The position numbers and the translations under genes were made by a program. From a bacterium (GTDB lineage Bacteria; Patescibacteriota; Andersenbacteria; UBA10190), in assembly GCA_043811915.1 (NCBI GenBank), contig JBDRMS010000005.1, positions 41,300 through 105,299 of the forward strand: 64,000 nucleotides of DNA, given 5' to 3'. How positions within the stretch are numbered: position 1 is the stretch's first letter; each line of letters opens with the position of its first letter. This document shows positions 10,807 through 64,000 of this stretch, piece by piece. The notes below the pieces were generated by a model, which was not told the DNA's origin, made no database searches, and saw nothing but the letters and a program-made list of their open reading frames with translations.

Positions 10807-11898
10807 ATGAACTTCGCCGTTATTGAATATACTAGCAAGTCAGGGCAGGTCTGGCGACACAGACCCGGTCAGCCTAATTACTTGCAAGACCCGGCCAAAG
10901 TGATTGATCCTACCAGCTTTGGCTGCTACGTTTCGGCCCTGGCCGGAGAGCATATACCTCTTACAAAGCTGATCGGAACCGGCAGCTTGCTCAAAAGAAT
11001 CATTAAGAAATTGACCGGCTCCTGGCCGCAAAATTACTCACTCGAATATTTAAGAAAGTTCGATTGTCTCATAGTTGTCCACCAAATCAGCAACGCCCAC
11101 GAGGTCACCGCCTTTGTTGAGCGTCTGAAGCGGGAACTGCCCCGCCTCTTTATTTTCGGTGTGCCCACCCAGCCTTATGGCATATTAAAACCGCACCTGG
11201 AAAAGAACGACCGGGCCAGGCATAACTTTGTGGAATACATGAACGCCTGCGACGTCTTTCTCACGGTAGTAAAAGACACAAAATCGTGGTATGAATCTTT
11301 GACGACTACGCCGGTAGAATATTTACCCCAGATATATCCTGCCCACTTCGCTGCTAAATTTTTCAAAGCCCAACAACAAAAAGATAAAGTACTGTTCGTC
11401 GCTGGCGTAACCTCCCGCCCCGAAATTATAAGAGGACTTAGAGTAGCCCGAGCCTTACAAAAAGAATTTCCCGATTATATTATCCAGGTTACCCGGATTC
11501 CCGGCATCGACATGAACCTTTCAGAATTGGCCGGCGCGAATTATGAAGTTTTGCCCTTCCAGCAGTGGCGTCAGCATTTACCCGAGCTGGCTAAAAAGAT
11601 GCTCGTTATTAATACCGACTACACTTTAACCCGCGGCCGTGTGCAGGTGGACTGTGCCGCCGTCGGCACTCCCAGCCTGGGCGCCAACTCCGACGGGCAA
11701 ACCGACTTATATCCACTTCTTGCCTCAAGACCAGAAACATCAGTCGAAGAGCTTGTTAGTTTGGGACAAAAACTACTCACCGACGAAACTTACTATCAGC
11801 AAACAGTCCAAACAGCCCAGCACAAACTGCAAAAATACGATTACGAAGAATCAGCCGTCCGCCTTCAACTATTAGTCAAGTCATATAGAAAAATATGA
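10807..11898 (+). CDS. putative glycosyltransferase (GT-B-like), first gene of the glycan locus
   Basis: 363 aa. The call rests only on its position heading a run of GT genes and on a Rossmann-like second half; no diagnostic motif was found. Confidence 0.3.
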   Translation: MNFAVIEYTSKSGQVWRHRPGQPNYLQDPAKVIDPTSFGCYVSALAGEHIPLTKLIGTGSLLKRIIKKLTGSWPQNYSLEYLRKFDCLIVVHQISNAHEVTAFVERLKRELPRLFIFGVPTQPYGILKPHLEKNDRARHNFVEYMNACDVFLTVVKDTKSWYESLTTTPVEYLPQIYPAHFAAKFFKAQQQKDKVLFVAGVTSRPEIIRGLRVARALQKEFPDYIIQVTRIPGIDMNLSELAGANYEVLPFQQWRQHLPELAKKMLVINTDYTLTRGRVQVDCAAVGTPSLGANSDGQTDLYPLLASRPETSVEELVSLGQKLLTDETYYQQTVQTAQHKLQKYDYEESAVRLQLLVKSYRKI

Positions 11899-12914
11899 AG
11901 CGCTTTCTCATTAGACACCTGGGAAATATGGGAGATATGGTCTTCTTTATCCCCCCCGTGCTGGCCACATTAAAAAAACACTACCCCGGCTGCCATATAA
12001 CTTTTGTCACTGTCTGGGGTTTCAAAGATAAAAAAGGGCAGTGGGGGAAAAGAGACCAGGGTGGCTTCTCCATCCACCTCATAATGACCAACCCTCATCT
12101 TGATCAACTCGTTCACTACCACGACACCAAGCTGTCACTGGATGGCAAAATATGCCGCGAGGATGGTCAAAGTTTTCCCACCTGGAACAAAAAATACTAT
12201 GACCAACAAAAAAACTCTGGCCGGTATGATCAGGTTTTCGAGCTGGATTTTGGCTTGAAGGTTGACGATAATCCTATTCAGCGCATGTATGAAACTATTG
12301 GCTTGCCTAATGAGACCCTCACTGATTATAAAATTTACTTTACGGACCGGGACCTGGCAGCAGCCCAGGCCGTTATTGATGACGCCCCTCGCCCGCGCAT
12401 AGTCCTCCTCGAAGGACTGGCCAGTACCACCACCCGCGGATGGGATCCCGGAAAAATACCAGCTCTCGAGCAAGCCATCAAAGAAGTATATCAGGTTGAT
12501 CCTATCTGGTTCGGCGGCAACTATATTCCGGATTACCAGGGGCGTTCTCTTTCTTTACGTGAAAACATTGCCACTTTGTCTTATTGTGATGCTGGCATCG
12601 GGGTTATGTCAGGCCCCATCCATTTTGCTGCCGCCGCCGACCTCCCCACCCTCACTTTATATTGCGACCACCCCATACATCGTGCTGCACCCGCCTATTT
12701 TCTCGGGAAAAAACACCGCACTTTACTCGGTCCTTCCACCCGGCCCTACCAGTTGCTTAAGAACGAGCAGCCAGCCATTGCCCTAACGCCCGCCGAGATC
12801 TCGCGTCAGCAATTCAAAAGTTGGAATCAGCCTGGTCGCCAGACCACCAAAACATGTCTGTCAGTAATTACCGTAGACGAAATCATGCTAGTCTTAAAAG
12901 AAATGTTATCGTAA
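11895..12914 (+). CDS. GT9 heptosyltransferase-family glycosyltransferase
   Basis: The N-terminus LIRHLGNMGDMVFFIPPVLATLKKHYPGCHITFVT matches the RfaF/WaaC-type motif (I-x-x-S-x-x-GD-x-x-x-x-P-x-x-x-x-LK-x-x-YP-x-A-x-I). The C-terminal segment is DAGIGVMSGPIHFAAA. Confidence 0.7.
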   Translation: MKRFLIRHLGNMGDMVFFIPPVLATLKKHYPGCHITFVTVWGFKDKKGQWGKRDQGGFSIHLIMTNPHLDQLVHYHDTKLSLDGKICREDGQSFPTWNKKYYDQQKNSGRYDQVFELDFGLKVDDNPIQRMYETIGLPNETLTDYKIYFTDRDLAAAQAVIDDAPRPRIVLLEGLASTTTRGWDPGKIPALEQAIKEVYQVDPIWFGGNYIPDYQGRSLSLRENIATLSYCDAGIGVMSGPIHFAAAADLPTLTLYCDHPIHRAAPAYFLGKKHRTLLGPSTRPYQLLKNEQPAIALTPAEISRQQFKSWNQPGRQTTKTCLSVITVDEIMLVLKEMLS

Positions 12915-12916
12915 TT

Positions 12917-13621
12917 ATGAATTCTCCCTGGGTAGTCATTCCCACTTACAATGAAAAAGGCAATATCGAACGCATGATTTCTTCCCTTTTCAGCCAAGGG
13001 GTCAACAATCTGTCGGTCCTTATTGTCGACGATAATTCCCCCGACGGAACAGGTGGCATAGTTCGTCGCCTGCAAGCAAGCTATCCCAACCTCCATCTGG
13101 AAATTCGGGCTAAGAAATCCGGTCTGGGGCGAGCTTATATTCACGGCTTCCGCTATGCGCTTGATCACGATGCTACTAATGTAGTCCAAATGGACGCCGA
13201 TTTCTCTCATGATCCCAAGGATGTTCCCCGCTTATTACAACAATTAGACCAATATGACGTTGTCATTGGCTCCCGTTACTCCCACGGCATCAGTGTTATC
13301 AACTGGCCCTTAAGCCGCTTACTATTAAGTACCGCCGCCAACTATTACGCCCGTCTGGTTACCGGCCTGCCGTACAAAGATGTCACCGGTGGTTTCCGTG
13401 CCTGGCGTGCCTCCTCCCTTGCCGCTATAAAACCGGAAAAGGTCAAGGCCGACGGCTATGGTTTTCAGATTGTTATGACCCACCGCGCCTGGCGACTAAA
13501 GCTTTCTTTTTCAGAAATCCCCATCATTTTTACCGAACGCCGTGAGGGTCAATCTAAAATGAGTAAATCCATAATGTGGGAAGCATTTTGGTTAGTATGG
13601 AAACTAAGACTTTTTGGTTAG
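12917..13621 (+). CDS. GT2 polyprenyl-phosphate glycosyltransferase (DPM1/CsbB/GtrB-like)
   Basis: WVVIPTYNEKGNIERMI ... LIVDDNSPDGT ... QMDADFSHDP ... VIGSRY is the canonical dolichyl/undecaprenyl-phosphate sugar synthase pattern. The start is at the internal Met right after the upstream stop. Confidence 0.85.
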   Translation: MNSPWVVIPTYNEKGNIERMISSLFSQGVNNLSVLIVDDNSPDGTGGIVRRLQASYPNLHLEIRAKKSGLGRAYIHGFRYALDHDATNVVQMDADFSHDPKDVPRLLQQLDQYDVVIGSRYSHGISVINWPLSRLLLSTAANYYARLVTGLPYKDVTGGFRAWRASSLAAIKPEKVKADGYGFQIVMTHRAWRLKLSFSEIPIIFTERREGQSKMSKSIMWEAFWLVWKLRLFG

Positions 13622-15774
13622 GACTCCTAGTACTTGTCCTCGTCTTTACATTCTATCCCCTTTGGCAGGGTAAATTTTATGCCGTCGGCGATATGCGCGA
13701 CGTCTTCATCCCTCTGGAAACTTTCTTTCGTCAGGAAATGCTTGCCTTTCGTCTTCCCTCCTGGAATCCGGACATCGCCTGGGGTTTTCCTGTTATTGCC
13801 TCCGCCCAAATTGGCTTTTTCTACCCACCCTTGCTTCTTCTTCGCCTTTTTCCTCCCTGGTTGTACATTCCTCTTATCCTGCTAGGTCACTTGGCTGCTT
13901 TGGCCATTGGCACATTTTTCTTCTTTCGTGCCCTTAAAATTACTCACGCGGGCTCTTATTTTGGCAGCATAAACTACACTCTGGGCAGCTTTATAATTCA
14001 GCATCTTTCTCACCTCAACATAATCATTACCACTGCCTGGCTCCCCTGGCAGCTTCTTGCTGTCCACAAAATAACTGCCAGGCCCAGGCTTGCTATCAGA
14101 CAGATTATTATACTGTCCCTCGTATTCGGGCTTCCTTTCCTGGCCGGGCAATTACAAATACCGGCCATGATGGCTATCGTATCCGCCGCTTACTTCTTTT
14201 ATCTTCGTTTTCAACAGCGCAAAAATATTTTTCGTCCCGTCCTTCTCCTGCTGTTGATTGCGGCGCTTTCCTTTCTTATTGCTGCCGCTCAACTTCTGCC
14301 CACTCTTGAGCTAATCACGCAGTCCTCTCGTGGACCCTCTGGCGACTTTGATATCCAGCAAGCCAACCAATATAGTTTTCCTCTTTATCACCTCCCCACG
14401 TTGATCTGGCCGCGTTTTTATGGGAATGACAGCACTTATTGGGGCGCCCGTCTGCAAGTCGAACAAGGCATATTTATCGGGTCAATCCCCCTAATACTTG
14501 CCCTATGGTTTATTGTTACAAGAATTAGCCGGCATATAAATCGATTCTGGCTTTTTCTTCTAATCATTTCTTTTTTTCTCGCCCTAGGCTCCCTTTCCCC
14601 ATTCAGACTTCTCGGCCTTGAGCCTTCCTTGTGGGTTTTTTCCGCCCCCGCCCGGTGGCTACTCTTCACAACCTTTTCTCTGTCCTTGTTTGCAGCTCGG
14701 GGGCTCGACCTGGCGCCAAAACACACGTGCTCGCTTAGACGTTTTGCTTTTTTTGGCGCCATTATTATTACTGCCATTGCCTTAATCGGCACGCTTGTCT
14801 TATTCACTGCCGACGACTCGCTTCTTAAAAATCTGGCCGCTAATGCCTTTTGGGGTAATCTTAATCGCCTCCCGGACTACTATACAGAGAAACTCAACAG
14901 TCTTATTAACAGCGCCCGCTCCAGTTCCTTTTCCCTGGCCGCGCCGGCTGCCGCTCTCCCCGTAATATTTTTAAGTGCTCTCCCCTTTATTCTTACCAGA
15001 CGACGCTGTTTGCCCGTTATACTTGCTATCACTACTGTCGAACTTGTCATTATCGCTGCCACAACCATCCCCGCCACCAGTTGGAATAATATACTTACAC
15101 CGCCCGATACCATCGCCGCTCTTCCCGCTGTCGTACTGGAAAAACAGGCTCGCATTTTTTCTTTCCGCCCGCCCGGCGACACCGGGCAATATTTCAGCAA
15201 CCCGGAAACCAGGCCCGACGCTAAAACGCGTGCCCAGCTCCGAACATTGCTTACGCCGCTAAGCCATGCCATCTATCACCTTCCCGGTATTGAGTGGCCG
15301 GCTTCTCTTCACCTGGCCTATCATGCTGACGTGCTTGATAGCATCCGCAGTTCTGACAGCCAGTGGCTTAAAGACGTAAACCGCGCTGAGCAATTGAACA
15401 TTGGCGCCGTACTCGTGCCCGCAAATGATGGCGTTAGCATCTACCAACTGTCCCCTGCCCCCCGCGCTTCCACCCAAGGCGCCAGTACATATCAGACCAT
15501 CAGTCCTACGCACACCAGGATATCAGTGGATGTGCCCGCCGACGCCGCTCTGACCATTCGCGACAGTTACTACCCTGGCTGGCGCGCCTATATAGACGAC
15601 GTCCGTACCCCTATCGCCCAAGCCGACGCAATCTTTCGTCAGTTAGCCATCCCTGCCGGCCGCCACCAGGTTGACATGTACTATCGCCCCCTGGCCCTGT
15701 ACCTCGGTCTGGTTTTATCGGCCCTGACTATTACCTTTTCCGCTGTGGTTATATTAAAGTCAGAACGAATATGA
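13597..15774 (+). CDS. YfhO-like GT-C-type polytopic membrane glycosyltransferase
   Basis: About 725 aa with roughly 12-14 N-terminal TM helices, a large C-terminal extracytoplasmic domain and a final TM helix. It lies directly downstream of a CsbB-like GT2, which is the classic CsbB-YfhO arrangement. Confidence 0.55.
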   Translation: METKTFWLGLLVLVLVFTFYPLWQGKFYAVGDMRDVFIPLETFFRQEMLAFRLPSWNPDIAWGFPVIASAQIGFFYPPLLLLRLFPPWLYIPLILLGHLAALAIGTFFFFRALKITHAGSYFGSINYTLGSFIIQHLSHLNIIITTAWLPWQLLAVHKITARPRLAIRQIIILSLVFGLPFLAGQLQIPAMMAIVSAAYFFYLRFQQRKNIFRPVLLLLLIAALSFLIAAAQLLPTLELITQSSRGPSGDFDIQQANQYSFPLYHLPTLIWPRFYGNDSTYWGARLQVEQGIFIGSIPLILALWFIVTRISRHINRFWLFLLIISFFLALGSLSPFRLLGLEPSLWVFSAPARWLLFTTFSLSLFAARGLDLAPKHTCSLRRFAFFGAIIITAIALIGTLVLFTADDSLLKNLAANAFWGNLNRLPDYYTEKLNSLINSARSSSFSLAAPAAALPVIFLSALPFILTRRRCLPVILAITTVELVIIAATTIPATSWNNILTPPDTIAALPAVVLEKQARIFSFRPPGDTGQYFSNPETRPDAKTRAQLRTLLTPLSHAIYHLPGIEWPASLHLAYHADVLDSIRSSDSQWLKDVNRAEQLNIGAVLVPANDGVSIYQLSPAPRASTQGASTYQTISPTHTRISVDVPADAALTIRDSYYPGWRAYIDDVRTPIAQADAIFRQLAIPAGRHQVDMYYRPLALYLGLVLSALTITFSAVVILKSERI

Positions 15775-16958
15775 AGCTGCTTTTTTCCGCCTTCACCGGC
15801 TATAACTTAAGAGAACTACTGCTGCCGCTTACTCCCCTCATTAACCAGGACAAGAATATCAATGAAGTTATCGTTGTCAGTCCGGCCGCTCCCTACCGCG
15901 ATCAGCTGTTCGCTTATCTCCCCGCTAAATACAGGTTTTTAACCGATCAACCCGGCGTTAGCGGCTACAAAAAATTATTATCTGACCACCAACCAGATTG
16001 CGTCGTTACCCCAACTCCCGGCCTGGAAGAAAAAGACATTCCTCTACTGCAAGCAGCCAGGCAAATCGGCATCCCCACCGTTACTTTCATAGCCAGCTGG
16101 GACAATGTATATAAATTAGCCAGGCGCATAAAAATTAGAAAATATAAACAACAATACGCCGTTGCTGATCACTTTGCTGTCTGGAACGCCATGAATAAGA
16201 AACATCTTCTTAACATCGTCCCGCGCCTCGCGCCACAGCAGATAACAGTCACCGGTGCCCCCCGCCTCGACTTCCTGTCCGACCCGGTCAAAATTCCCAG
16301 TCGGGAAACTTTGCTGCAGCGTCTGAAAATTCCTGATGACGGGAAAAAGTTAATCCATGTAGCTTCCACGGAACTATATCCCAGCGACTACATCATCAAA
16401 GCCATCGCTGACCGTGGCGACTGTCACATTCTGTTGTCAGTCCACCCGGGAGGAAATATTACCTTCCACCGCCGTTATGCGGAGCCCTACCGCGCTTTCG
16501 TTCGCTATTCATTTGGCCGCCGCCGGCATTCCCCTGTGCCGGAGTTTACTTATAACCCCACCCTGGATGATCTTCGCCTGCACGCTGCCCTATTTCTTCA
16601 TAGTGATCTCCTTATTAATCATTCTTCCACCGTTACCATTGAATCTTTGCTGGCTGACACACCTGTTATTAATGTCAAATATGGCAAACCCCTGGACTGG
16701 TGGCGCTGGCACCGCTCTATGGTTTACCGGGATTTCAATCAGCACGCCAGAATTATTATCGATTCCGGCGCCACCGCCGTTGTCCATTCTCGCCGCGAGC
16801 TCATTAATGCCGTAGCCGCCAATCTGCAGGATCCGGCCATGCATCAAGCTGCCCGCCGCGCCCTGGCTATCAAAATGGTCACCATTACCGACGGCACCGC
16901 CGGCCGGAGACTACTTGACCTCATCAAAAATGTTGCCGACTATAAAGGTACACCATGA
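15771..16958 (+). CDS. putative GT-B-fold transferase (TagB/TagF- or capsule-biosynthesis-like)
   Basis: 395 aa with a two-Rossmann-like layout and a His-rich segment HILLSVHPGGNITFH. The assignment is tentative. Confidence 0.3.
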   Translation: MKLLFSAFTGYNLRELLLPLTPLINQDKNINEVIVVSPAAPYRDQLFAYLPAKYRFLTDQPGVSGYKKLLSDHQPDCVVTPTPGLEEKDIPLLQAARQIGIPTVTFIASWDNVYKLARRIKIRKYKQQYAVADHFAVWNAMNKKHLLNIVPRLAPQQITVTGAPRLDFLSDPVKIPSRETLLQRLKIPDDGKKLIHVASTELYPSDYIIKAIADRGDCHILLSVHPGGNITFHRRYAEPYRAFVRYSFGRRRHSPVPEFTYNPTLDDLRLHAALFLHSDLLINHSSTVTIESLLADTPVINVKYGKPLDWWRWHRSMVYRDFNQHARIIIDSGATAVVHSRRELINAVAANLQDPAMHQAARRALAIKMVTITDGTAGRRLLDLIKNVADYKGTP

Positions 16959-21811: not shown

Positions 21812-21827
21812 TTTTTCGCTCCTTCAG

Positions 21828-21855: not shown

Positions 21856-21862
21856 AGAGCCT

Positions 21863-53910: not shown

Positions 53911-53945
53911 AAACTCTGGCAGTCTTAACTCCCAGAGTTTTTTTA
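53911..53945. terminator. bidirectional terminator-like hairpin between convergent genes
   Basis: AAACTCTGG and CCAGAGTTT form a 9-bp stem followed by TTTTTT. The hairpin overlaps the stop codon of the E1-beta gene. Confidence 0.5.
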
Positions 53946-59043: not shown

Positions 59044-59850
59044 TTAGCGCCGGTGCCAGGCGCTCAGGTGATAGAACGTTGTTTTGGGCAATAAGTTAAC
59101 TAATAACTCCCTTAAATAAACCGGCAAGTTAAACCAAAAACCAGGATATTTATTGCGATATTGATAAGCAATTTTTAAAAAAGACAAAAACTGCCGCATG
59201 TTTTTTTTCGAAGTCACGCCACGCGGGTTTACTCTCTGTTGTATATAGACATCCGGCAAGTTTGCCAGCTGATATTTCAAACCAATTCGCAGCCACAATT
59301 CAAAATCCTGGGCATAGCAATATTGCTCATCATACAATCCCACTCTATCCAATGCCGATTTGCGGATTAATACACTGGAGTGAGGAAATTGATTACGTTC
59401 CATCATGTGCCGCCTGATTGTTTTATTTTCAGTCTCATAATACAACCGGTACAGTTCCCTGCCATCAGCATCTATCACAATATTCTGCACGCCACACACT
59501 CCGATATTGTCATTCTCCTGCATATATAGCACTTGTTTTACCAGCTTGTCTTTATCTACCCACACGTCATCGTCATCAATCCGCGCAATATATTCACCAC
59601 GCGCTAATCTAATACCGCGATTAAGAGATTTTGTTAGCCCTAATCTCCTCTCATTGCGTACAATTCGGATTCGTTGATCACTAAAGCCGGCAACAATATC
59701 CACCGCCTTGTCAGTCGAAGCATCATCAACAACGATCAACTCAAAATTTCCGTAAGTTTGTTTTAGAACGCTGCTTACCGCCTCACTAACAAATCGCGAC
59801 CCGTTGCGGGTCGCCATAACAACCGAAACTAGAGGTTCTCCTTGTACCAT
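59044..59850 (-). CDS. GT2 glycosyltransferase
   Basis: VSVVMATRNGSRFV ... LIVVDDASTDK ... ARIDDDDVW. Confidence 0.8.
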   Translation of the reverse strand: MVQGEPLVSVVMATRNGSRFVSEAVSSVLKQTYGNFELIVVDDASTDKAVDIVAGFSDQRIRIVRNERRLGLTKSLNRGIRLARGEYIARIDDDDVWVDKDKLVKQVLYMQENDNIGVCGVQNIVIDADGRELYRLYYETENKTIRRHMMERNQFPHSSVLIRKSALDRVGLYDEQYCYAQDFELWLRIGLKYQLANLPDVYIQQRVNPRGVTSKKNMRQFLSFLKIAYQYRNKYPGFWFNLPVYLRELLVNLLPKTTFYHLSAWHRR

Positions 59851-60767
59851 TCAATAGACTTCTTAAGCCCTTCCGCAAATGAAACATCCGGCTTGTAATC
59901 GAAGTCTCGCTCGGCCTTACTGATGTCAGCGTATGTCTTTAGCACATCACCGGCTCGTTTGCCAGTCCGGTTCGGCTTTATCGAAACGCCTAGTAGTTTT
60001 TGCAGCAAACCATACAAATCGTTAATCGAAATATTCTCGCCATTGCCCACATTGTAAGCCTCTCCCAACTTAACCCGCTCGCCTCGTGCCGCTTTCAAAT
60101 TCGCCTGCACCACATTGTCCACATAAGTAAAGTCCCGGCTCTGCCTGCCATGCCAGTGAATGTCTGGCGCTTCGCCATTCCGCAAGGCTTTCACATAAAT
60201 CGGAATCACCGCCGAATACTTCGACTCCGGACTTTGGTACGGTCCAAACACATTGAAGTAACGCAAGGACACCGTCTCTAGTCCATACAAATCGTAAAAA
60301 AGTCTGCCATAATGCTCCCCGGCCATTTTACACAAAGCATAGGGAGACTCTGGATGCAAAGGCATAGGCTCAACTTGCCGCGGTTCTTTTATGTTGCCGT
60401 ACACCGAGGAGGAAGAAGCCGACACCACCCGCTTCACCCCACTATCTCTGGCCGCCAGCAAAACATTCAAAGTGCCGGTTATGTTATTATCATTCGTCGC
60501 CCGCGGATCATCCACCGACCGCTCCACCGCTCTTAACGCCGCCTGGTGCAGCACATAATCCACTCCGCGGCACGCCCTTTTCACCACATCCAACTTCCTA
60601 ATATCACCTCTGATAAACTTTATATCTTCTCTAATATCCTTTAAGTTCTTGATACTGCCCGTCGATAAATTATCCAACACCGCCACATCCTGCCTCCGCC
60701 GCACCAGCTCTCTGGCTATATTACAGCCGATAAATCCCGCCCCGCCTGTAATTAAATACTTTGCCAT
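59829..60767 (-). CDS. NAD-dependent UDP-sugar 4-epimerase (WbpP/Gne-like)
   Basis: YLITGGAGFIGCNIAREL, YALCKMAGEHY (Y-x-x-x-K), and RYFNVFGPYQ. Confidence 0.85.
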   Translation of the reverse strand: MAKYLITGGAGFIGCNIARELVRRRQDVAVLDNLSTGSIKNLKDIREDIKFIRGDIRKLDVVKRACRGVDYVLHQAALRAVERSVDDPRATNDNNITGTLNVLLAARDSGVKRVVSASSSSVYGNIKEPRQVEPMPLHPESPYALCKMAGEHYGRLFYDLYGLETVSLRYFNVFGPYQSPESKYSAVIPIYVKALRNGEAPDIHWHGRQSRDFTYVDNVVQANLKAARGERVKLGEAYNVGNGENISINDLYGLLQKLLGVSIKPNRTGKRAGDVLKTYADISKAERDFDYKPDVSFAEGLKKSIEWYKENL

Positions 60768-60816: not shown

Positions 60817-61788
60817 ATGAAGATACTAATTCCTTATTGTTCAGGCAACGCTGGCGGCCCCACGGTATTTGTTACCGCTCTAACCCAGCACCTGCAAAAT
60901 CAGGGATACAAAGTCATCAGTCACTTCTCACCTTCATTTGACGTCTTACTCGTCATCGCCGAATGTCCGCTTTTGCCGGTCCTCTGCGCCAAACTTCTTC
61001 GCAAACGCATAGTACAAAGGTTGGATGGCGTTTACCACGCCGCCTTACCCGGTGCAACCAAATATCTTTATCCACTTAAAAACCTGCGCATGCAAATAAT
61101 TCACAATTTCCTGGCCGACCACGTTATCTATCAAAGCCGGTTTTCCAAATACTCATGTCAAACCATGCTAGGCAAACGCACTAAAAACACGTCGATAATC
61201 TACAACGGTGTAGCGGCCGGGAAAACCCTTGGCTTTGACAGAAAAAAGCCAAGGGTTGAGGAGGCCGCCGCGAATCTAGTAACCTATGCCTCTTTCCGCC
61301 GCCCCGACCAAATCGAGCCAATTCTAGAATCAGTCAAATGTCTCACTACCCCCTATCATCTCCATATTTACGGCCCCCACACTAAAAACCTGGTCAACAT
61401 CTTCAACTCACTCAAAAATAATCCCCATATCACTTATTATGGAGCCCAAAATCACAGCAAGCTATTATCTCTCATACCACAGCATGATATTTTCCTGTTC
61501 TCCGACCAGTCCGCCTGCCCCAACGCTGTCCTGGAAGCTTTAGCTGCCGGCCTACCCGTGGTAGCTTTCAACCGCGGCAGTATACCCGAACTTATCCAGC
61601 CCGGCGCAAGCGGTGAAATAATCAACTATCCATTTACCTCACAAAACTATACCCAATTTGCCCAAGCTATTCAGAAAACATTCAGCAATCTATCTGACTA
61701 TCAGACCGCGGCCCGGCAACGCGCCCGGATTAACTATGACGTAACCAACACATGTTTGAAGTATGAAAAGATATTACGACAAAAATAA
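60817..61788 (+). CDS. GT4-like (GT-B) glycosyltransferase
   Basis: C-terminus FLFSDQSACPNAVLEALAAGLPVVAFNRGSIPELI. Confidence 0.6.
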   Translation: MKILIPYCSGNAGGPTVFVTALTQHLQNQGYKVISHFSPSFDVLLVIAECPLLPVLCAKLLRKRIVQRLDGVYHAALPGATKYLYPLKNLRMQIIHNFLADHVIYQSRFSKYSCQTMLGKRTKNTSIIYNGVAAGKTLGFDRKKPRVEEAAANLVTYASFRRPDQIEPILESVKCLTTPYHLHIYGPHTKNLVNIFNSLKNNPHITYYGAQNHSKLLSLIPQHDIFLFSDQSACPNAVLEALAAGLPVVAFNRGSIPELIQPGASGEIINYPFTSQNYTQFAQAIQKTFSNLSDYQTAARQRARINYDVTNTCLKYEKILRQK

Positions 61789-62569
61789 ACAGCGGTTAGT
61801 ATTTATACGAGAGCATGCTACCCCCTCTTTCTGGGACAAGCACTGGTCCGCACCCAACCTAAAAGCTCACATCGAACAAGCCGGCCAGGAAAAGTTTTTT
61901 ACCGGGATAACAAAACGCTTTTTAGAACCTAAAGAATCAACCAGAATTCTTGAAGGCGGTTGTGGCCAGGGACACATTGTCTACGCCCTCGCCCATGCCG
62001 GCTATGACGCCTATGGCGTAGACTACGCCAAACAAACCGTCGATAGGATTAACCAGGCCATTCCCGAACTGCAAATTTTTCCCGGCGACGTAACACAACT
62101 AGACTTTCCCGATAATTATTTTGATGGCTACTGGTCGCTCGGTGTTATCGAGCATAACTTCACCGGCTACGATTCTATTATCAACGAAATGCAGCGCGTC
62201 ATCAGACCAGGCGGCTACTTATTTATAACCTTCCCGCACTTGTCCTGGCTACGTAAAACAAAAGCACTACTAGGTGCTTATCCGGCCCCCAACAACACCG
62301 ACCAAGAACCAAACAACTTCTATCAATTCGCTTTTAACTACCATGATGTTCAGCGCAATCTAGAACAACTCGGCTTTATTATAAAACTTCACCGGCCAAT
62401 CGATGGGCTAACAGGACTGCGTGGCGAAATTTCTATCCTTCGACCACTCTTACAAACAATCAGCCGTGGAACTTCCTTTCCTCTCCGTCATCTTAAGGCC
62501 GCCATCACCGAACTAGCCGCCCCTGTCAGCGGCCATATTATGCTACAAGTACTGCAAAAGAAGTCATGA
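61763..62569 (+). CDS. class I SAM-dependent methyltransferase
   Basis: Motif I is ILEGGCGQGHIVYALAHAGYDAYGVD. Confidence 0.7.
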   Translation: MKRYYDKNKQRLVFIREHATPSFWDKHWSAPNLKAHIEQAGQEKFFTGITKRFLEPKESTRILEGGCGQGHIVYALAHAGYDAYGVDYAKQTVDRINQAIPELQIFPGDVTQLDFPDNYFDGYWSLGVIEHNFTGYDSIINEMQRVIRPGGYLFITFPHLSWLRKTKALLGAYPAPNNTDQEPNNFYQFAFNYHDVQRNLEQLGFIIKLHRPIDGLTGLRGEISILRPLLQTISRGTSFPLRHLKAAITELAAPVSGHIMLQVLQKKS

Positions 62570-63240
62570 GAAAATATATCCTCATTACTCTCCTGCGCCT
62601 GGACAATTTCCTGCGCCGCTGGATTACCTATTTCTCTCTCGAACAGGGCGTACATCCCAAGCATCGTCTTACTCAATATCATCAGTTCTTCCTCGATAAC
62701 ATTTTCCCCACGGACTCCGTCCTCGACGTCGGCTGCGGCCTGGGCCTACTGGCCTGCGACATCGCCGCCAAAGCTAAACACGTAACCGGCATCGACCTCA
62801 ACAAAGATTATCTCTCCCAGGCCCATCGCCTCCAAAACATCGACTTTATCCACGGCGATGCCACGACTTTCGATTTCAAGAAAAACTTCGATGTGCTAAT
62901 TCTAAGCAACACACTTGAGCATATAAAAAACAGAGTCGACTTTCTAAAAAAACTTACTCCTCACGCAAAAAAATTTCTTGTCCGCGTCCCCATGATCAAT
63001 CGCGACTGGCTTGTCCTGCTTAAAAAAGAACTCGGCGTGGAGTATCGCCTGGACCCCACTCATTACATTGAATACACCGAGGAAATTTTCCGTCGGGAGC
63101 TTGCCGCCGCCGGCCTGGAAATAACTAAACTATCCGTCCGCTTCGGCGAAATCTATTGCTGTGCCCAGCCTAATACTGTTTTTCACAGTACCTCTCATCC
63201 ACTTGCTCTTCCTCACTATCCCACCAAATCCAATAACTAG
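62566..63240 (+). CDS. class I SAM-dependent methyltransferase
   Basis: Motif I is VLDVGCGLGLLACDIAAKAKHVTGIDL. It is coupled by 4 nt to the previous methyltransferase. Confidence 0.7.
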   Translation: MRKYILITLLRLDNFLRRWITYFSLEQGVHPKHRLTQYHQFFLDNIFPTDSVLDVGCGLGLLACDIAAKAKHVTGIDLNKDYLSQAHRLQNIDFIHGDATTFDFKKNFDVLILSNTLEHIKNRVDFLKKLTPHAKKFLVRVPMINRDWLVLLKKELGVEYRLDPTHYIEYTEEIFRRELAAAGLEITKLSVRFGEIYCCAQPNTVFHSTSHPLALPHYPTKSNN

Positions 63241-63583
63241 GACACGCCTTATCTATCTCTAACTCCAAAAACCTGGTACCCAAAAGCCTTGCCCCGAGGC
63301 CAAGCGGCGTCAATAAGCCATAAAAAACAACAGTCAAAATAAGTCTTGTCATCACCCAGCCAAGCGCCGCTGCCATCAACATCCACACGCGATAAAAACC
63401 AGCCAGCGCCTCCGGCTTAGCCTGCGCCAACAACAAAACGGCAACTCCCGATGCCCCTGCCAAAACAAAATATCTTTGTCCGCTCGTATAAAATCGCCAC
63501 CCTCCCCACACCAACAGCAAACACCCAACCAAGTACCCAAACCGACGCACGGGCATCAATCCAACGGGTATTCTTCTTTCCAT
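63170..63583 (-). CDS. small membrane protein, SxtJ-like partner of the carbamoyltransferase
   Basis: 137 aa with 3-4 TM helices, immediately downstream of and overlapping the carbamoyltransferase gene. Confidence 0.4.
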   Translation of the reverse strand: MERRIPVGLMPVRRFGYLVGCLLLVWGGWRFYTSGQRYFVLAGASGVAVLLLAQAKPEALAGFYRVWMLMAAALGWVMTRLILTVVFYGLLTPLGLGARLLGTRFLELEIDKACPSYWIWWDSEEEQVDERYCEKQY

Positions 63584-64000
63584 ACCTCATCCTTCAAAGA
63601 GGGACCCTGTTCACCCTTATCCAATAAATAATTTCCCATCACCAGATAATCCATGTCGGTGCGCATAAAGCATCGATATGCATCGTCCGGCGTACACACT
63701 ATAGGCTCCCCCCTCACATTAAAAGACGTATTTATAATCACCGGACAACCAAACCTCTCCCCAAATTTTTTTATCAAACTATGAAAGAGAGGATTAGTGT
63801 CAATTCCAACGCTCTGCACCCGGGCTGAATAATCCACATGCGTAACCGCCGGAATATCGGAACGCTTAACCCTCAATCTGTCTATACCCCGCCTTTGCCC
63901 GGCCCCGGGACTCAACACCCTGTGTTCATTTTTTACCATAGCCGTCAAAAGCATATATGGGCTGGGCCGATCTATCGTAAAATATTCTGCCGCCTCCTCC
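63556..64000 (-). CDS. NodU/CmcH-family O-carbamoyltransferase, C-terminal part only (5' end beyond window)
   Basis: SPYMLLTA ... IPAVTHVDYSARVQSV ... CPVIINTSFNVRGEPIVCTPDDAYRCF is the conserved carbamoyltransferase C-terminal domain. The open frame continues to the window edge with no stop. Confidence 0.75.
   Translation of the reverse strand, partial: EEAAEYFTIDRPSPYMLLTAMVKNEHRVLSPGAGQRRGIDRLRVKRSDIPAVTHVDYSARVQSVGIDTNPLFHSLIKKFGERFGCPVIINTSFNVRGEPIVCTPDDAYRCFMRTDMDYLVMGNYLLDKGEQGPSLKDEVWKEEYPLD

What the first reader, a model, noticed from the sequence alone, without database searches (positions are those of the whole stretch)
10807..64000. Glycan-assembly supercluster of more than 53 kb with about 20 glycosyltransferases
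From 10.8 kb to the window edge nearly every gene is a glycosyltransferase or a sugar-tailoring enzyme.
- Glycosyltransferases: about 10 GT4-like, 6 GT2 and 2 GT9 genes, plus one GT2-GT4 fusion.
- Membrane and export components: three large GT-C/YfhO-like membrane transferases, two DUF2304 proteins and a Wzx flippase.
- Donor supply and tailoring: HldE, AsnB, 7 methyltransferases, 5 SDR/epimerases, 3 ThDP enzymes, 2 ATP-grasp ligases, a deacetylase and a carbamoyltransferase.
Genes are packed with 4-nt ATGA overlaps, which indicates long translationally coupled operons. The size and enzyme diversity suggest a complex, heavily decorated envelope glycan, methylated, carbamoylated and possibly C-branched and amino-acylated. 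It is unlikely to be a standard O-antigen. I cannot assign a product from sequence alone.
Basis: partly seen in the sequence, partly recalled or inferred. Interest (0 to 1): 0.65.

Follow-up and report, generated by a model that had tools for sequence, protein, structure and literature searches.

The report
Giant surface-glycan gene island, CPR bacterium
A tiny-genome, uncultivated bacterium of the Candidate Phyla Radiation devotes more than 60 kb to building a heavily decorated cell-surface sugar structure; the machinery follows a known design but is unusually large, and about 25 kb of it is conserved across that bacterial lineage.

Summary
Between 10.8 and 64 kb, 45 of 51 ORFs match glycan-assembly, sugar-tailoring or related small-molecule enzyme families (Pfam/NCBIfam or predicted fold). 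I count 21 glycosyltransferases: 8 GT4, 6 GT2, one GT2-GT4 fusion, 2 GT9, one TagB/F-like and 3 GT-C.

New points:
- **Organism.** It is a Patescibacteria/CPR bacterium near Candidatus Andersenbacteria, so LPS or O-antigen is unlikely.
- **Two parts.** About 12.8-37.5 kb is a core that is colinear in at least 10 Andersenbacteria-type contigs at 41-63% amino-acid identity. The 38-74 kb arm appears variable.
- **Sugar cassette.** The arm holds a cassette also found in Nomurabacteria and Elusimicrobia. It combines heptose-type activation, a 4,6-dehydratase, a YerE-like ThDP enzyme, E1αβ, methyltransferases and reductases.
- **Extent.** The island continues at least 9 kb past the window edge, and more glycan genes lie upstream.
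- **Assembly.** It is not chimeric.

Corrections: there are 18 strand blocks, not long operons. "HldE" has reversed domain order and scores below threshold. There are 6 methyltransferases, not 7. The product, primer and acceptor remain unknown. This is a large new member of a known kind of locus.

The parts
80..3538 (+). Tail of a second, upstream glycan block: a 187-aa ORF, a 452-aa protein with 9 predicted TM segments and no family, and MurJ-family flippase. It lies outside the finding's coordinates.
   Evidence: Pfam MurJ 220 bits. TM prediction. The upstream context L111 holds GT2, GT4, GT2, GT4, a 679-aa multi-TM protein and a Wzx-like gene directly before these ORFs.
10807..11898 (+). 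363-aa ORF of unknown family, the first gene of the block.
   Evidence: No Pfam, NCBIfam or PDB match. ATGA overlap with the next gene.
11895..12914 (+). GT9-like protein (marginal match).
   Evidence: PF01075 26.5 bits against a cut-off of 22, over 48 residues.
12821..13621 (+). GT2 of the polyprenyl-monophosphate-sugar synthase class (AglJ/PpgS-like).
   Evidence: PF00535 105.5 bits. Best NCBIfam matches are AglJ and PpgS, both below cut-off. A homologue is present in L091.
13576..15774 (+). YfhO-family GT-C membrane glycosyltransferase.
   Evidence: PF09586 68.8 bits against a cut-off of 28.5. About 11 TM segments.
15771..16958 (+). TagB/F-like GT-B transferase. The donor could be CDP-glycerol or a CMP-sugar.
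   Evidence: Glyphos_transf 27.3 bits against 22.1. BFO_1060 family 64 bits, below its cut-off of 200. Colinear orthologues at 42-46% identity in relatives.
16955..17821 (+). RimK-type ATP-grasp amino-acid ligase.
   Evidence: PF08443 99.8 bits. RimK family 112 bits. No orthologue detected in the relatives whose fetched flank covers this position, except a fragment in L090.
17778..18473 (+). Polysaccharide deacetylase.
   Evidence: PF01522 71.5 bits. Conserved in relatives.
18411..19409 (-). ATP-grasp ligase resembling the cyanophycin-synthetase and GshAB ATP-grasp module.
   Evidence: TIGR02068 197 bits, below cut-off. No orthologue detected in the relatives' fetched flanks.
19453..20241 (+). 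GT2 (chain-extending type).
   Evidence: PF00535 60.7 bits. Core orthologues at 47-62% identity.
20232..21386 (+). GT4.
   Evidence: PF00534 111 bits. Orthologues at 53-60% identity.
21380..21811 (-). 143-aa ORF of unknown function.
   Evidence: No family. A 35% homologue sits at the same position in L085.
21737..22894 (+). GT9 (heptosyltransferase family).
   Evidence: PF01075 111.8 bits. Heptosyltransferase II 127 bits against a cut-off of 134.6. Orthologues at 44-56% identity.
22851..27427 (-). Four tandem GT4 genes (22851-24092, 24089-25225, 25222-26286, 26270-27427).
   Evidence: PF00534 108-129 bits each. Colinear orthologues at 41-63% identity in at least 10 loci.
27424..29478 (-). GT-C fold membrane glycosyltransferase of a family without a Pfam match, with a CBM35-like C-terminal beta-sandwich. 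It heads the GT4 operon.
29551..30345 (+). Methyltransferase (Methyltransf_24).
   Evidence: A 60% orthologue in L090.
30392..31375 (-). NDP-sugar epimerase/dehydratase (SDR).
   Evidence: PF16363 193.6 bits.
31365..31751 (-). DUF2304 small membrane protein (GacJ/Rv3632 family).
   Evidence: PF10066 91.5 bits. Role of the family from bioRxiv 10.1101/180810.
31741..32460 (-). GT2, PpgS/GacI-class polyprenyl-phosphate-sugar synthase.
   Evidence: PF00535 100 bits. Best NCBIfam match PpgS at 111 bits, below cut-off.
32472..33590 (+). GT4.
   Evidence: PF00534 87 bits.
33548..34264 (+). GT2, PpgS/GacI-class synthase.
   Evidence: PF00535 86 bits. PpgS 154 bits and AglJ 134 bits, both below cut-off. 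Orthologues at 52-58% identity lie next to the 684-aa GT-C in most relatives.
34246..34632 (+). DUF2304 (GacJ-type partner).
   Evidence: PF10066 50.5 bits. Orthologues at 49-54% identity.
34629..36287 (+). 552-aa GT-C fold membrane protein.
36284..37498 (+). GT4.
   Evidence: PF00534 123.6 bits. Orthologues at 37-47% identity.
38161..38817 (-). IS200/Y1-transposase-like gene. It marks the junction between the core and the variable arm and follows a 660-bp non-coding gap.
   Evidence: PF01797 29.9 bits. ORF map of the gap.
38910..40799 (+). AsnB-type glutamine amidotransferase.
   Evidence: PF00733 337 bits. TIGR01536 488 bits, above its cut-off of 267. Best match is the EPS-associated amidotransferase TIGR03108 at 606 bits.
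40768..41868 (+). SAM methyltransferase.
41788..43317 (-). Nucleotidyltransferase-sugar kinase fusion (HldE-like, with the domain order reversed).
   Evidence: CTP_transf_like at residues 32-120 and PfkB at 196-490. HldE 153 bits against a cut-off of 521. Heptose-7-phosphate kinase 4e84 is the best PDB hit. The same fusion occurs in L108, and it is split into two genes in L107 and L110.
43319..44650 (-). Wzx-type flippase.
   Evidence: Polysacc_synt_3 46.9 bits and Polysacc_synt 46.5 bits. About 10 TM segments.
44626..45567 (-). GT2.
   Evidence: PF00535 71 bits.
45536..46537 (-). Zn-dependent alcohol dehydrogenase (cassette member).
   Evidence: Orthologues at 47-49% identity in L107 and L108.
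46534..47190 (-). SAM methyltransferase (cassette member).
   Evidence: Orthologues at 53-56% identity. ThDP-methyltransferase fusions exist elsewhere.
47194..48999 (-). YerE-like ThDP carboligase (ALS superfamily).
   Evidence: Three TPP domains. Below the ALS equivalog cut-off, 425 against 538 bits. Best PDB hit is 8rph JanthE at 336 bits, which PMC12188165 describes as YerE-like. Homologues at 56-61% identity occur in many phyla.
48990..49853 (-). FkbM-family methyltransferase (cassette member).
   Evidence: A 50% orthologue in L108.
49871..50647 (-). SDR ketoreductase. A YerF-like role is inferred.
   Evidence: A 46% orthologue in L107.
50631..51626 (-). NDP-sugar 4,6-dehydratase-like SDR.
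   Evidence: PF16363 168.8 bits. dTDP-glucose 4,6-dehydratase 204 bits, below its cut-off of 365. Orthologues at 41-51% identity.
51647..52540 (+). IMPase-family phosphatase. A GmhB-like step is inferred.
   Evidence: PF00459 64 bits. An Inositol_P-family gene sits in the equivalent place in L109.
52672..53904 (+). Metallophosphoesterase-like protein.
   Evidence: PF00149 37 bits. Proteins of about 405 aa (no Pfam hit) occupy the equivalent place in L109; homology to this gene was not tested.
53943..56007 (-). E1-beta (53943-54992) and E1-alpha (54982-56007) ThDP pair, with no E2 or E3 gene.
   Evidence: NCBIfam PDH E1 subunits. Orthologues at 53-59% identity in L107 and L108. The class is known as sugar C2-branching alpha-KADH2 (PMC12247030).
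56004..57020 (-). NDP-sugar epimerase/reductase (cassette member).
   Evidence: Orthologues at 42-49% identity.
57086..59008 (+). GT2-GT4 fusion glycosyltransferase.
   Evidence: PF00535 104 bits at the N-terminus and PF00534 43 bits at the C-terminus.
59044..59850 (-). GT2 (EpsE/TuaG-like).
59829..60767 (-). NDP-sugar epimerase (TviC-like).
   Evidence: 240 bits, below cut-off.
60817..61788 (+). GT4.
   Evidence: PF00534 59.7 bits.
61763..63240 (+). Two SAM methyltransferases (61763-62569 and 62566-63240).
63170..63583 (-). SxtJ-family small membrane protein.
   Evidence: PF19588 31.5 bits.
63556..64000 (-). Carbamoyltransferase (NodU/CmcH type), cut by the window edge.
   Evidence: Carbam_trans_C 119.7 bits. 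The continuation is in L082.

Best explanation
The region is a composite cell-envelope glycan biosynthesis island of an uncultivated Patescibacteria (CPR) bacterium related to Candidatus Andersenbacteria.

**Conserved core (about 12.8-37.5 kb)**
- About ten soluble transferases (six GT4, one GT9, GT2s and a TagB/F-like GT-B enzyme) are inferred to build an oligosaccharide or short polymer on a polyprenyl carrier at the cytoplasmic face.
- A deacetylase is inferred to unmask an amino sugar.
- Three PpgS/GacI-class GT2 enzymes, two with DUF2304 (GacJ-type) activator subunits, are inferred to make polyprenyl-monophosphate sugars.
- After flipping, three GT-C membrane transferases would use these donors to add residues, or to transfer the glycan, on the outer face. 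The three are one YfhO-family protein and two proteins without a Pfam match.

**Variable arm (38 kb to at least 74 kb)**
- It supplies and attaches rare sugars, using a Wzx flippase and further GT2 and GT4 enzymes.
- It contains a roughly ten-gene cassette with this inferred sequence: a sugar phosphate is activated in the manner of the nucleotide-heptose pathway (kinase-nucleotidyltransferase fusion plus an IMPase-type phosphatase), 4,6-dehydrated, C-branched by a YerE-like ThDP enzyme and an E1-alpha/beta pair, then reduced and methylated.
- Amidation (AsnB), carbamoylation and, in this strain, amino-acid ligation (two ATP-grasp enzymes) add further decoration.

**Shown versus inferred**
- Shown: gene families, GT-C folds, synteny, conservation, taxonomy and integrity of the assembly.
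- Inferred: every substrate, the order of steps, and the acceptor. The acceptor could be a wall-linked polymer, a lipid-anchored glycan, or an S-layer or pilin protein.
For: **Gene content**
- Pfam and NCBIfam assignments for 45 of 51 ORFs.

**GT-C folds**
- The two proteins without a Pfam match are GT-C by fold.
- Each has a conserved acidic motif after TM1.

**Polyprenyl-phosphate-sugar supply**
- GT2 genes 12821, 31741 and 33548 best match PpgS, AglJ and dolichyl-phosphate hexose transferases.
- They lie next to DUF2304 and GT-C genes.
- GacI/GacJ/GacL and PpgS/Rv3632 are the experimentally characterised precedents. The multi-component glycosylation model is reviewed in PMC8035078.

**Taxonomy**
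- The best XseA relatives and all named homologues of the 684-aa protein are Andersenbacteria or Patescibacteria.

**Core conservation**
- Colinear orthologues at 41-63% identity occur in L083, L085, L086, L089-L093, L098 and L099.
- This is similar to XseA divergence of 52-60%.

**Cassette**
- Orthologues at 37-61% identity in the same combination occur in Nomurabacteria, Elusimicrobia and two other contigs. Those versions have SIS and HAD genes that complete a heptose-type activation route.
- JanthE, a YerE-like enzyme, is the best solved relative of the ALS-like protein.
- YerE-type and alpha-KADH2-type enzymes are known to branch sugars.

**Extent and integrity**
-.
Against: - No initiating phosphoglycosyltransferase, Wzy or WaaL, ABC exporter, LCP ligase or GtrA-type flippase was found in the window or in 19 kb of flanks. 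Priming, export of the core product and anchoring are therefore unexplained.
- None of the tailoring enzymes tested reaches an NCBIfam equivalog cut-off, so no sugar can be named.
- The SIS isomerase seen in the cassette in L107, L108 and L110 is absent here.
- Eighteen strand blocks and three to five GT-C modules fit several products at least as well as one.
- Variability of the right arm rests on few, distant relatives: it has no counterpart in the relatives' fetched flanks, and those flanks extend only 10 kb.
- The JanthE score (336 bits) exceeds the plant AHAS score (305 bits) only modestly.
Confidence: 0.75

Rival explanations
1. The island is several independent glycoconjugate pathways that happen to lie side by side, for example protein O-glycosylation, a wall polysaccharide and a glycolipid. 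On this view it is not one 'supercluster' making one product.
For: - There are 18 strand blocks.
- There are three separate polyprenyl-phosphate-sugar synthase and GT-C modules, plus a further one or two upstream.
- The core is conserved on its own, whereas the right arm has no counterpart in the relatives' fetched flanks and its cassette moves between phyla.
- An IS200-like gene and a 660-bp gap separate the two halves.
- Non-glycan genes at 3.5-10.8 kb split off the upstream block.
Against: - Only one Wzx lies inside 10.8-64 kb, and the core itself has no exporter. This suggests the halves share export machinery.
- Conserved-plus-variable layouts are described for streptococcal, enterococcal and lactococcal wall-polysaccharide loci, which make one polymer with variable decoration (my own knowledge; the glycosylation mechanism is reviewed in PMC8035078).
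- Sequence alone cannot settle the question.
Confidence: 0.4
2. The region is an LPS core/O-antigen region of a diderm bacterium, with GT9 heptosyltransferases, HldE and Wzx.
For: GT9 x2, an HldE-like gene and a Wzx gene are present. GT9 21737 scores just under the heptosyltransferase II cut-off, 127 against 134.6 bits.
Against: - The lineage is CPR, and lipid A/LPS genes are reported absent from CPR genomes (PMC5220378).
- No Lpx, Kds, WaaL, Wzy or Wzz gene occurs in 83 kb.
- The HldE-like protein has reversed domain order and scores 153 against 521 bits.
- YfhO and GacI/J-type modules have mostly been characterised in monoderm bacteria.
Confidence: 0.03
3. The region is a biosynthetic cluster for a glycosylated secondary metabolite (an antibiotic-type oligosaccharide). 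The branched, methylated, carbamoylated sugars would decorate a small-molecule aglycone.
For: E1-alpha/beta (alpha-KADH2) sugar-branching enzymes are so far known from antibiotic pathways (PMC12247030). FkbM-type methyltransferases, a carbamoyltransferase and SxtJ are typical of natural-product clusters.
Against: - No PKS, NRPS, terpene or other aglycone genes are present.
- Three GT-C enzymes, polyprenyl-phosphate-sugar synthases, Wzx and MurJ indicate assembly on a membrane carrier.
- The 21 glycosyltransferases far exceed known glycoside clusters.
- The core is conserved across a whole lineage.
- YerE-like enzymes act in LPS and other surface sugars.
Confidence: 0.04
4. The region is an assembly chimera joining unrelated contigs.
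For: One independent assembly breaks at about 48.07-48.10 kb and another at about 37.5 kb.
Against: - The break at 48.1 kb lies inside an intact 601-aa ORF that aligns end to end with its family.
- The same full-length protein is in the NCBI MAG on a 124,471-bp contig.
- The two Logan contigs overlap there by about 30 bp.
- GC skew is uniformly strongly negative across the whole window and the upstream flank.
- The core order is reproduced in at least 10 unrelated metagenomes.
Confidence: 0.02

Closest known systems
Streptococcal group A carbohydrate locus (gacA-L: GacI/GacJ/GacK/GacL), with the related enterococcal EPA and lactococcal cwps loci
   Same: - A cytoplasmic GT2 forms a polyprenyl-phosphate sugar with help from a DUF2304 membrane subunit.
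- A Wzx-type flippase is present.
- A GT-C enzyme adds the sugar outside the membrane.
- The locus has a conserved backbone part and a variable decoration part.
   Different: - There is no rhamnose pathway, rhamnosyltransferase set or ABC exporter.
- The GT4 and GT9 array has no counterpart there.
- Two of the GT-C enzymes are not PMT_2 or YfhO by Pfam.
- There are three to five such modules rather than one.
- The host is a CPR bacterium.
- No sequence-level orthology was shown.
CsbB/YfhO(/GtcA) teichoic-acid glycosylation systems of Bacillus, Listeria and Staphylococcus
   Same: Adjacent GT2 (12821) and YfhO-family GT-C (13576). The 684-aa protein is a distant YfhO-like relative (BLASTP E = 7e-4 at equivalent positions, and NCBI names one distant homologue 'YfhO family').
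   Different: - No GtrA/GtcA flippase was found.
- No teichoic-acid backbone genes (TagO/A/D/GH, LtaS) were found.
- The GT2 genes lack the CsbB-type C-terminal TM pair and instead pair with DUF2304.
Mycobacterial PpgS/Rv3632 polyprenyl-phosphate-GalNAc synthase with a GT-C partner, and the general lipomannan/lipoarabinomannan logic (cytosolic GT4 enzymes, then GT-C enzymes outside)
   Same: PpgS is the best NCBIfam match of 31741 and 33548 (for 12821 it ranks second, after AglJ). Two of these GT2 genes have a DUF2304 partner gene. Many GT4 genes are combined with several GT-C enzymes. AftD and AftA are among the best structural matches.
   Different: Scores are well below the PpgS equivalog cut-off (52-154 bits against 370). 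There are no arabinan or mannan genes, and the phylum is different.
Yersiniose pathway (YerE/YerF) and alpha-KADH2 (E1-alpha/beta) sugar C-branching enzymes
   Same: An ALS-superfamily ThDP enzyme closest to the YerE-like JanthE lies next to a 4,6-dehydratase and a ketoreductase. A stand-alone E1-alpha/beta pair sits in a sugar context.
   Different: - Both ThDP systems occur together in one cassette.
- Activation looks heptose-type (PfkB kinase plus a CTP_transf-like domain) rather than CDP-glucose-type.
- No 3-deoxygenation genes were recognised.
- The product is unknown.
Nucleotide-heptose pathway (GmhA, HldE, GmhB, HldD) with GT9 heptosyltransferases
   Same: Kinase and nucleotidyltransferase domains most similar to RfaE/HldE domains I and II. 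A phosphatase and epimerases lie nearby. GT9 transferases are present. The related cassettes in L107, L108 and L110 carry an SIS isomerase.
   Different: - The domain order is reversed.
- Scores are far below the equivalog cut-offs.
- The phosphatase is IMPase-family, not HAD.
- No SIS/GmhA gene lies in the window.
- The organism has no LPS context.
Oligosaccharyltransferases STT3/AglB/PglB
   Different: No WWDYG motif is present. About 10% sequence identity. Equally good matches to ArnT, PMT, Aft and ALG enzymes.

Membership tests
GT-C fold glycosyltransferases (for 27424-29478 and 34629-36287) | Multi-pass N-terminal membrane domain whose fold superposes on solved GT-C enzymes | tested here: met
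GT-C fold glycosyltransferases (for 27424-29478 and 34629-36287) | Conserved acidic residue(s) in the first extracytoplasmic loop | tested here: met
   Invariant GGD-PWQ directly after TM1 in 40 sequences. Invariant D98/W102 within DVDPYHW in 20 sequences. The loop topology is inferred from hydropathy and the models.
GT-C fold glycosyltransferases (for 27424-29478 and 34629-36287) | Use of a polyprenyl-phosphate-linked sugar donor | not testable with these tools
   Only context supports this: PpgS-class GT2 and DUF2304 genes are adjacent here and in relatives.
Pfam YfhO (PF09586) | Score above the Pfam gathering threshold | tested here: met
   13576-15774 scores 68.8 bits against 28.5. By contrast, 27424-29478 has no hit even at E = 1 and shows only BLASTP E = 7e-4 to the window's YfhO protein.
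STT3/AglB/PglB oligosaccharyltransferases | WWDYG motif in the C-terminal domain | tested here: not met
   No WWD-type motif occurs in any of the three GT-C proteins.
GacI/GacJ (PpgS/Rv3632) polyprenyl-phosphate-sugar synthase pairs | GT2 of the PpgS/GacI class | tested here: inconclusive
   PpgS is the best NCBIfam hit for 31741 and 33548 (111 and 154 bits) and second to AglJ for 12821 (52 bits), but all are below the cut-off of 370.
GacI/GacJ (PpgS/Rv3632) polyprenyl-phosphate-sugar synthase pairs | Adjacent DUF2304 small membrane protein | tested here: met
   PF10066 scores 91.5 and 50.5 bits, and each gene overlaps or abuts its GT2 partner. 12821 has no DUF2304 partner.
GacI/GacJ (PpgS/Rv3632) polyprenyl-phosphate-sugar synthase pairs | Stimulation of synthase activity by the small subunit | not testable with these tools
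   This is known for GacJ and Rv3632 only.
HldE (bifunctional heptose kinase/adenylyltransferase) | N-terminal PfkB kinase followed by a C-terminal nucleotidyltransferase | tested here: not met
   The order is reversed: CTP_transf_like at 32-120, PfkB at 196-490.
HldE (bifunctional heptose kinase/adenylyltransferase) | NCBIfam equivalog score | tested here: not met
   153 bits against 521. The domain models score 126 against 345 and 100 against 181.5.
HldE (bifunctional heptose kinase/adenylyltransferase) | Companion GmhA (SIS) isomerase and a phosphatase | tested here: inconclusive
   No SIS gene lies in the window or in L082. An IMPase-family phosphatase is adjacent. SIS and HAD genes are present in the related cassettes L107, L108 and L110.
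YerE-like sugar-branching ThDP enzymes | ALS-superfamily three-domain ThDP enzyme that is not a biosynthetic ALS | tested here: met
   Three TPP domains. 425 bits against the ALS equivalog cut-off of 538. No ALS small-subunit gene lies nearby.
YerE-like sugar-branching ThDP enzymes | Closest characterised relative is a YerE-type enzyme | tested here: inconclusive
   JanthE (8rph) is the best PDB hit at 336 bits, against 305 for plant AHAS. No phylogeny was made.
YerE-like sugar-branching ThDP enzymes | Clustered with an NDP-sugar 4,6-dehydratase and a ketoreductase | tested here: met
   50631 (dehydratase-like) and 49871 (SDR) lie in the same co-directional run. Orthologues of both lie next to the ThDP gene in L107, and like-annotated (Pfam) neighbours do so in L109 and L110; in L108 only the dehydratase orthologue was detected.
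Wzx/Wzy-dependent O-antigen or capsule pathway | Wzx flippase | tested here: met
   Polysacc_synt and Polysacc_synt_3 above cut-off.
Wzx/Wzy-dependent O-antigen or capsule pathway | Initiating phosphoglycosyltransferase, Wzy polymerase and chain-length regulator in the locus | tested here: not met
   No Bac_transf, Glycos_transf_4, Wzy_C or Wzz hit in any ORF of the window, L082 or L111. The 452-aa 9-TM protein at 627-1985 is an untested Wzy candidate.
Wall teichoic acid (Tag/Tar) pathway | TagB/F glycerophosphotransferase together with TagO, TagA, TagD and TagGH | tested here: not met
   Only a weak Glyphos_transf hit (27.3 bits against 22.1) in 15771. None of the other Tag genes is present.

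The most novel reading that the evidence does not exclude
The roughly 25-kb conserved core may be the biosynthetic locus of the principal, lineage-defining envelope glycoconjugate of Andersenbacteria. In that reading, a CPR-centred GT-C family acts as the en-bloc transferase or polymerase, a functional analogue of an oligosaccharyltransferase or O-antigen ligase. That family has more than 1,000 representative clusters, and none of the members tested has a Pfam match. The variable arm would make a so far undescribed heptose-derived sugar carrying two ThDP-installed carbon branches. If so, this would give the first concrete molecular handle on the unknown CPR cell envelope and on host or phage recognition.
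Probability: 0.25. Interest if true: 0.7.

Novelty: new member of a known kind. Interest (0 to 1): 0.5.

Why it matters
- **Scale.** This one locus holds as many glycosyltransferases (at least 21, and 23-29 with the flanks) as the whole genome of a described Parcubacterium (20). If the genome is near the phylum average of 0.92 Mb, the locus would be about 6-9% of it.
- **Target genes.** A core conserved across Andersenbacteria-type genomes identifies candidate genes for the lineage's main surface glycan. That glycan is the probable interface for host attachment and phage adsorption.
- **New enzyme assignments.** The work assigns a GT-C fold to two protein families that have no Pfam match.
- **A mobile sugar cassette.** It also delineates a cross-phylum cassette that probably makes a new branched sugar.

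Tried and rejected
- **Exact look-up of the 684-aa ORF.** It failed from its TTG start because the recorded gene starts 24 codons later.
- **Anchoring on XseA.** The aim was to find syntenic genomes. Eighty relatives were fetched and none carries the cluster next to XseA.
- **tRNA and Rfam scans.** Nothing found.
- **Repeat search.** One 31-nt pair only.
- **PDB sequence searches.** Nothing for the 363-aa first gene or the 452-aa 9-TM protein.
- **BLASTP of the 363-aa protein against both GT9 proteins.** No similarity, so it is not counted as a glycosyltransferase.
- **Low-threshold Pfam scan of all unassigned ORFs.** Nothing usable.
- **Foldseek against AFDB.** The library was unavailable.
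- **Oligosaccharyltransferase membership.** Rejected for lack of WWDYG.
- **LPS, natural-product and chimera readings.** Rejected; see the rival explanations.
- **Biosynthetic acetolactate synthase reading of 47194.** Rejected. The score is below the equivalog cut-off, there is no small-subunit gene, the gene sits in a sugar cassette, and fusions to methyltransferases occur elsewhere.

Full report
**1. The observation**

The window has 61 non-nested ORFs of at least 100 aa. I scanned all of them against Pfam, and 30 against NCBIfam.

From 10,807 to 64,000 there are 51 ORFs that fill about 99% of the sequence. Forty-three match glycan-assembly, sugar-tailoring or related small-molecule enzyme families above Pfam gathering scores, and two more (27424, 34629) are assigned by predicted fold, giving 45. 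One further ORF matches an IS200-like transposase family. Five have no assignment above a cut-off: 10807, 21380 and 29551 aside, see the parts list for each gene.
- Eight GT4, six GT2, one GT2-GT4 fusion and two GT9 (one marginal).
- One YfhO protein, two DUF2304 proteins and a Wzx-type flippase.
- An AsnB-type amidotransferase.
- Six methyltransferases and five SDR epimerase/dehydratases.
- Three ThDP polypeptides: one ALS-like protein and an E1-alpha/beta pair.
- Two ATP-grasp ligases, a polysaccharide deacetylase and the C-terminus of a carbamoyltransferase.

- A TagB/F-like GT-B enzyme (15771).
- A Zn-dependent alcohol dehydrogenase.
- An IMPase-family phosphatase.
- A metallophosphoesterase.
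- SxtJ.
- An IS200-like gene.

Eleven of 33 same-strand junctions are 4-nt overlaps (9 ATGA, 2 GTGA). The region is nevertheless cut into 18 strand blocks, and the longest co-directional run is nine genes. "Long translationally coupled operons" is therefore an overstatement.

**2. The membrane transferases**

Only 13576 is YfhO by Pfam.

*The 684-aa protein (27424-29478).*
- It has no Pfam hit even at E = 1.
- It has more than 120 full-length homologues at 42-57% identity.
- A 40-sequence alignment shows an invariant GGD-PWQ motif directly after the first transmembrane helix.
- The AlphaFold model has pLDDT 89.7 and pTM 0.86.

*The 552-aa protein (34629-36287).*
- The model has pLDDT 86.2.
- It has an invariant DVDPYHW motif in the first loop.

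*Family placement.*
- Neither protein has the WWDYG motif of STT3/AglB/PglB. They are GT-C enzymes but not oligosaccharyltransferase family members.
- A profile of the 684-aa family finds 1,051 representative clusters at E ≤ 1e-30 and 10,745 at E ≤ 1e-3 among 1.84 billion proteins.
- Ten of the distant relatives have no Pfam hit.
- The named ones are CPR bacteria, and NCBI calls one of them "YfhO family protein".
- In a Kerfeldbacteria genome, such a relative again sits among GT4, GT2, Wzx and PMT_2 genes.

**3. Donor supply for the GT-C enzymes**

Three of the GT2 genes (12821, 31741, 33548) best match polyprenyl-monophosphate-sugar synthases: PpgS, AglJ, dolichyl-phosphate hexose transferase and ArnC. 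All are below equivalog cut-offs. The other GT2 genes look like ordinary chain-extending enzymes.

Two of the three synthase-like genes are followed by DUF2304 genes.
- DUF2304 is the family of GacJ. GacJ forms a complex with the GlcNAc-P-undecaprenol synthase GacI and raises its activity.
- The same family includes Rv3632, the partner of PpgS (bioRxiv 10.1101/180810).
- The general scheme is a GT-A synthase, with or without a small membrane subunit, then a flippase, then a GT-C enzyme. It is reviewed in PMC8035078.

The window thus contains three such modules.

**4. Organism**

- The nearest relatives of the housekeeping XseA protein in one genome per GTDB species are all Patescibacteria. The best is 75% identical, and named Andersenbacteria MAGs are 52-59% identical.
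- Every named homologue of the 684-aa protein is Andersenbacteria or Patescibacteria.
- NCBI places these under Patescibacteria group > Parcubacteria group > Candidatus Anderseniibacteriota.
- The source appears to be an NCBI MAG labelled only "bacterium", with locus tags ABIH36 and a contig of 124,471 bp.
- Genomes of this phylum average 0.92 Mb (PMC13293708).
- One described Parcubacterium has 20 glycosyltransferases in its entire genome and no LPS genes. Its authors state that the CPR envelope is not understood (PMC5220378).

**5. Conserved core and variable arm**

I used the 684-aa family to fetch contexts from a named Andersenbacteria genome (L083) and from metagenomes (L085-L104).

*The core order.* A tblastn map shows one colinear order at 41-63% amino-acid identity in L083, L085, L086, L089-L093, L098 and L099:
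- The GT-C gene followed by four GT4 genes.
- Converging on them: GT9, GT4, GT2, deacetylase and the TagB/F-like gene. A GT2 12821 homologue follows where the flank reaches that far.

*The other side of the GT-C gene.* One of two arrangements lies there, transcribed divergently:
- In most loci: PpgS-like GT2, DUF2304, GT4 and a 34629-like membrane protein.
- In L090 and L094: the paralogous GT2, DUF2304 and epimerase trio.

The window has both arrangements.

*Inheritance.* The identity level matches that of XseA, which fits vertical inheritance. No orthologue of either ATP-grasp ligase was detected in the relatives whose fetched flank covers their position, apart from a fragment in L090.

*The right arm.* Right of the IS200-like gene (38.2 kb) I found no orthologous context in these flanks, apart from an AsnB gene in L091. 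Those flanks reach only 10 kb, so the variability of this arm is not firmly established.

**6. A sugar cassette found in other phyla**

*The ALS-like ThDP protein (47194).*
- It is not a biosynthetic ALS: 425 bits against a cut-off of 538.
- Its best solved relative is JanthE, 8rph, at 336 bits. PMC12188165 describes JanthE as YerE-like.
- Its homologues are 56-61% identical in Nomurabacteria, Nitrospirota, Saganbacteria, Omnitrophota, Chlamydiae, Elusimicrobia and Pirellulales.
- Some homologues are fused to a methyltransferase domain.

*Contexts in four other contigs* (L107 Nomurabacteria, L108 Elusimicrobia, L109, L110). tblastn against L107 and L108 finds orthologues at 37-61% identity of ten window genes; for L109 and L110 the same combination is seen in the Pfam gene calls only. 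The ten genes are:
- The kinase and nucleotidyltransferase, fused in the same reversed order in L108.
- The 4,6-dehydratase-like SDR.
- An SDR reductase.
- The YerE-like enzyme.
- E1-alpha and E1-beta.
- An epimerase.
- A SAM methyltransferase.
- An FkbM methyltransferase.
- A Zn-dependent alcohol dehydrogenase.

L107, L108 and L110 also carry an SIS (GmhA-like) isomerase, and L107 and L110 a HAD phosphatase. Together with the kinase and nucleotidyltransferase these make the four activities of the nucleotide-heptose route. L109 carries an IMPase-family phosphatase in the same place as the window.

*Background.* YerE-type enzymes branch LPS sugars. E1-alpha/beta "alpha-KADH2" enzymes branch antibiotic sugars with C2 units (PMC9306805 and PMC12247030).

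*Inference.* The cassette makes an NDP-activated, dehydrated, C-branched, reduced and methylated higher sugar. The window has no SIS gene, so the entry substrate here is uncertain.

**7. Extent and integrity**

- L082 is 100% identical to window 52,566-64,000.
- It continues 9.2 kb further with the rest of the carbamoyltransferase (split into 459-aa and 122-aa ORFs), a GDSL-like protein, DUF5989, a GT4, a VTC-CotH-DUF4956 triad, another GT4 and a methyltransferase.
- Upstream of the window, L111 shows GT2, GT4, a 589-aa 10-TM protein, a PpgS-like GT2, GT4, a 679-aa multi-TM protein and a Wzx-like gene. These run into window ORFs 80-3538, which are a 187-aa ORF, a 452-aa 9-TM protein and MurJ.
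- Glycan genes therefore cover at least 76 kb of a span of at least 83 kb on a contig of about 124 kb. The only interruption is 3.5-10.8 kb, which holds XseAB, small ORFs, an orphan HsdM, a Phd antitoxin and RadC.
- Independent Logan assemblies agree at 100% identity.
- Their breaks fall in a non-coding gap at 37.5 kb and inside the intact ThDP gene at 48.1 kb. Neither is a sign of chimerism.
- GC skew is uniformly and strongly negative.

**8. What remains unexplained**

- No initiating phosphoglycosyltransferase, Wzy or WaaL, ABC exporter, LCP ligase or GtrA-type flippase was found in 83 kb.
- The acceptor and the number of products cannot be read from sequence.
- None of the tailoring enzymes tested reaches an equivalog threshold, so no sugar can be named.

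**9. Verdict**

The locus works like the multi-component wall-glycan systems of Gram-positive bacteria and mycobacteria, combined with a mobile rare-sugar cassette. It is a new and very large member of that kind rather than a new kind.

Its interest lies in four things:
- The host lineage is CPR.
- The core is conserved across that lineage.
- Two GT-C families without a Pfam match are now assigned a fold.
- The cassette carries two ThDP systems.

Noticed in passing
window 1-64000 (also L111 1-10000): GC skew is very strong and negative throughout (-0.15 to -0.33 per 2 kb). It is -0.21 over plus-strand genes and -0.26 over minus-strand genes, so it follows the replication strand rather than transcription. 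Relatives range from about 0.02 to 0.27 in absolute value.
   Followed up: partly
L111 1-10000 and window 80-3538: A second glycan block lies upstream of the window: GT2, GT4, a 589-aa 10-TM protein, a PpgS-like GT2, GT4, a 679-aa multi-TM protein with 'DPVDFY' after TM1, and a Wzx-like gene. It ends in window ORFs 80-643, 627-1985 and MurJ.
   Followed up: partly
window 627-1985 (+): A 452-aa protein with about 9 TM segments lies between a Wzx-like gene and MurJ and overlaps MurJ by 4 nt. It has no Pfam, NCBIfam or PDB match. It is a candidate Wzy-type polymerase or ligase, but this is untested.
   Followed up: partly
window 37499-38817: A 660-bp non-coding gap contains a 40-aa zinc-ribbon-like ORF (37638-37760) and lies next to an IS200/Y1-transposase-like gene (38161-38817). 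One independent assembly breaks here. It marks the border between the conserved core and the variable arm.
   Followed up: partly
window 3794-10838: An island of non-glycan genes sits between the two glycan blocks. It holds XseA/XseB, several small ORFs, an HsdM methylase with no recognisable HsdR or intact HsdS, a Phd/YefM antitoxin and RadC.
   Followed up: no
L082 10605-14068 (window 63170 to about 66630): A carbamoyltransferase lies next to SxtJ, and DUF5989, another small membrane protein, lies about 1.5 kb away beyond a GDSL-like gene. The carbamoyltransferase is interrupted: a 459-aa ORF and a 122-aa N-terminal ORF are about 90 nt apart. This may be a frameshift or a pseudogene.
   Followed up: partly
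L082 15045-18994: A VTC domain protein, an 872-aa CotH kinase-like protein and a DUF4956 protein form a triad embedded among GT4 genes just past the window edge.
   Followed up: no
P0153, P0221 (homologues of window 47194-48999): Some YerE-like ThDP homologues in other metagenomes are fused to a SAM methyltransferase domain (844 and 825 aa). This mirrors the adjacency of 47194 and 46534 here and suggests coupled branching and methylation.
   Followed up: no
window about 48070-48100: The Logan assembly of SRR27458547 splits into two contigs (89,289 and 34,990 bp) that overlap by about 30 bp inside the intact ThDP gene. This may reflect strain-level variation at the cassette.
   Followed up: partly
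window 52000-56000: GC content rises to 0.52-0.54 over the metallophosphoesterase and E1-alpha/beta genes, against about 0.46-0.49 elsewhere. This fits a separate origin for part of the cassette.
   Followed up: no
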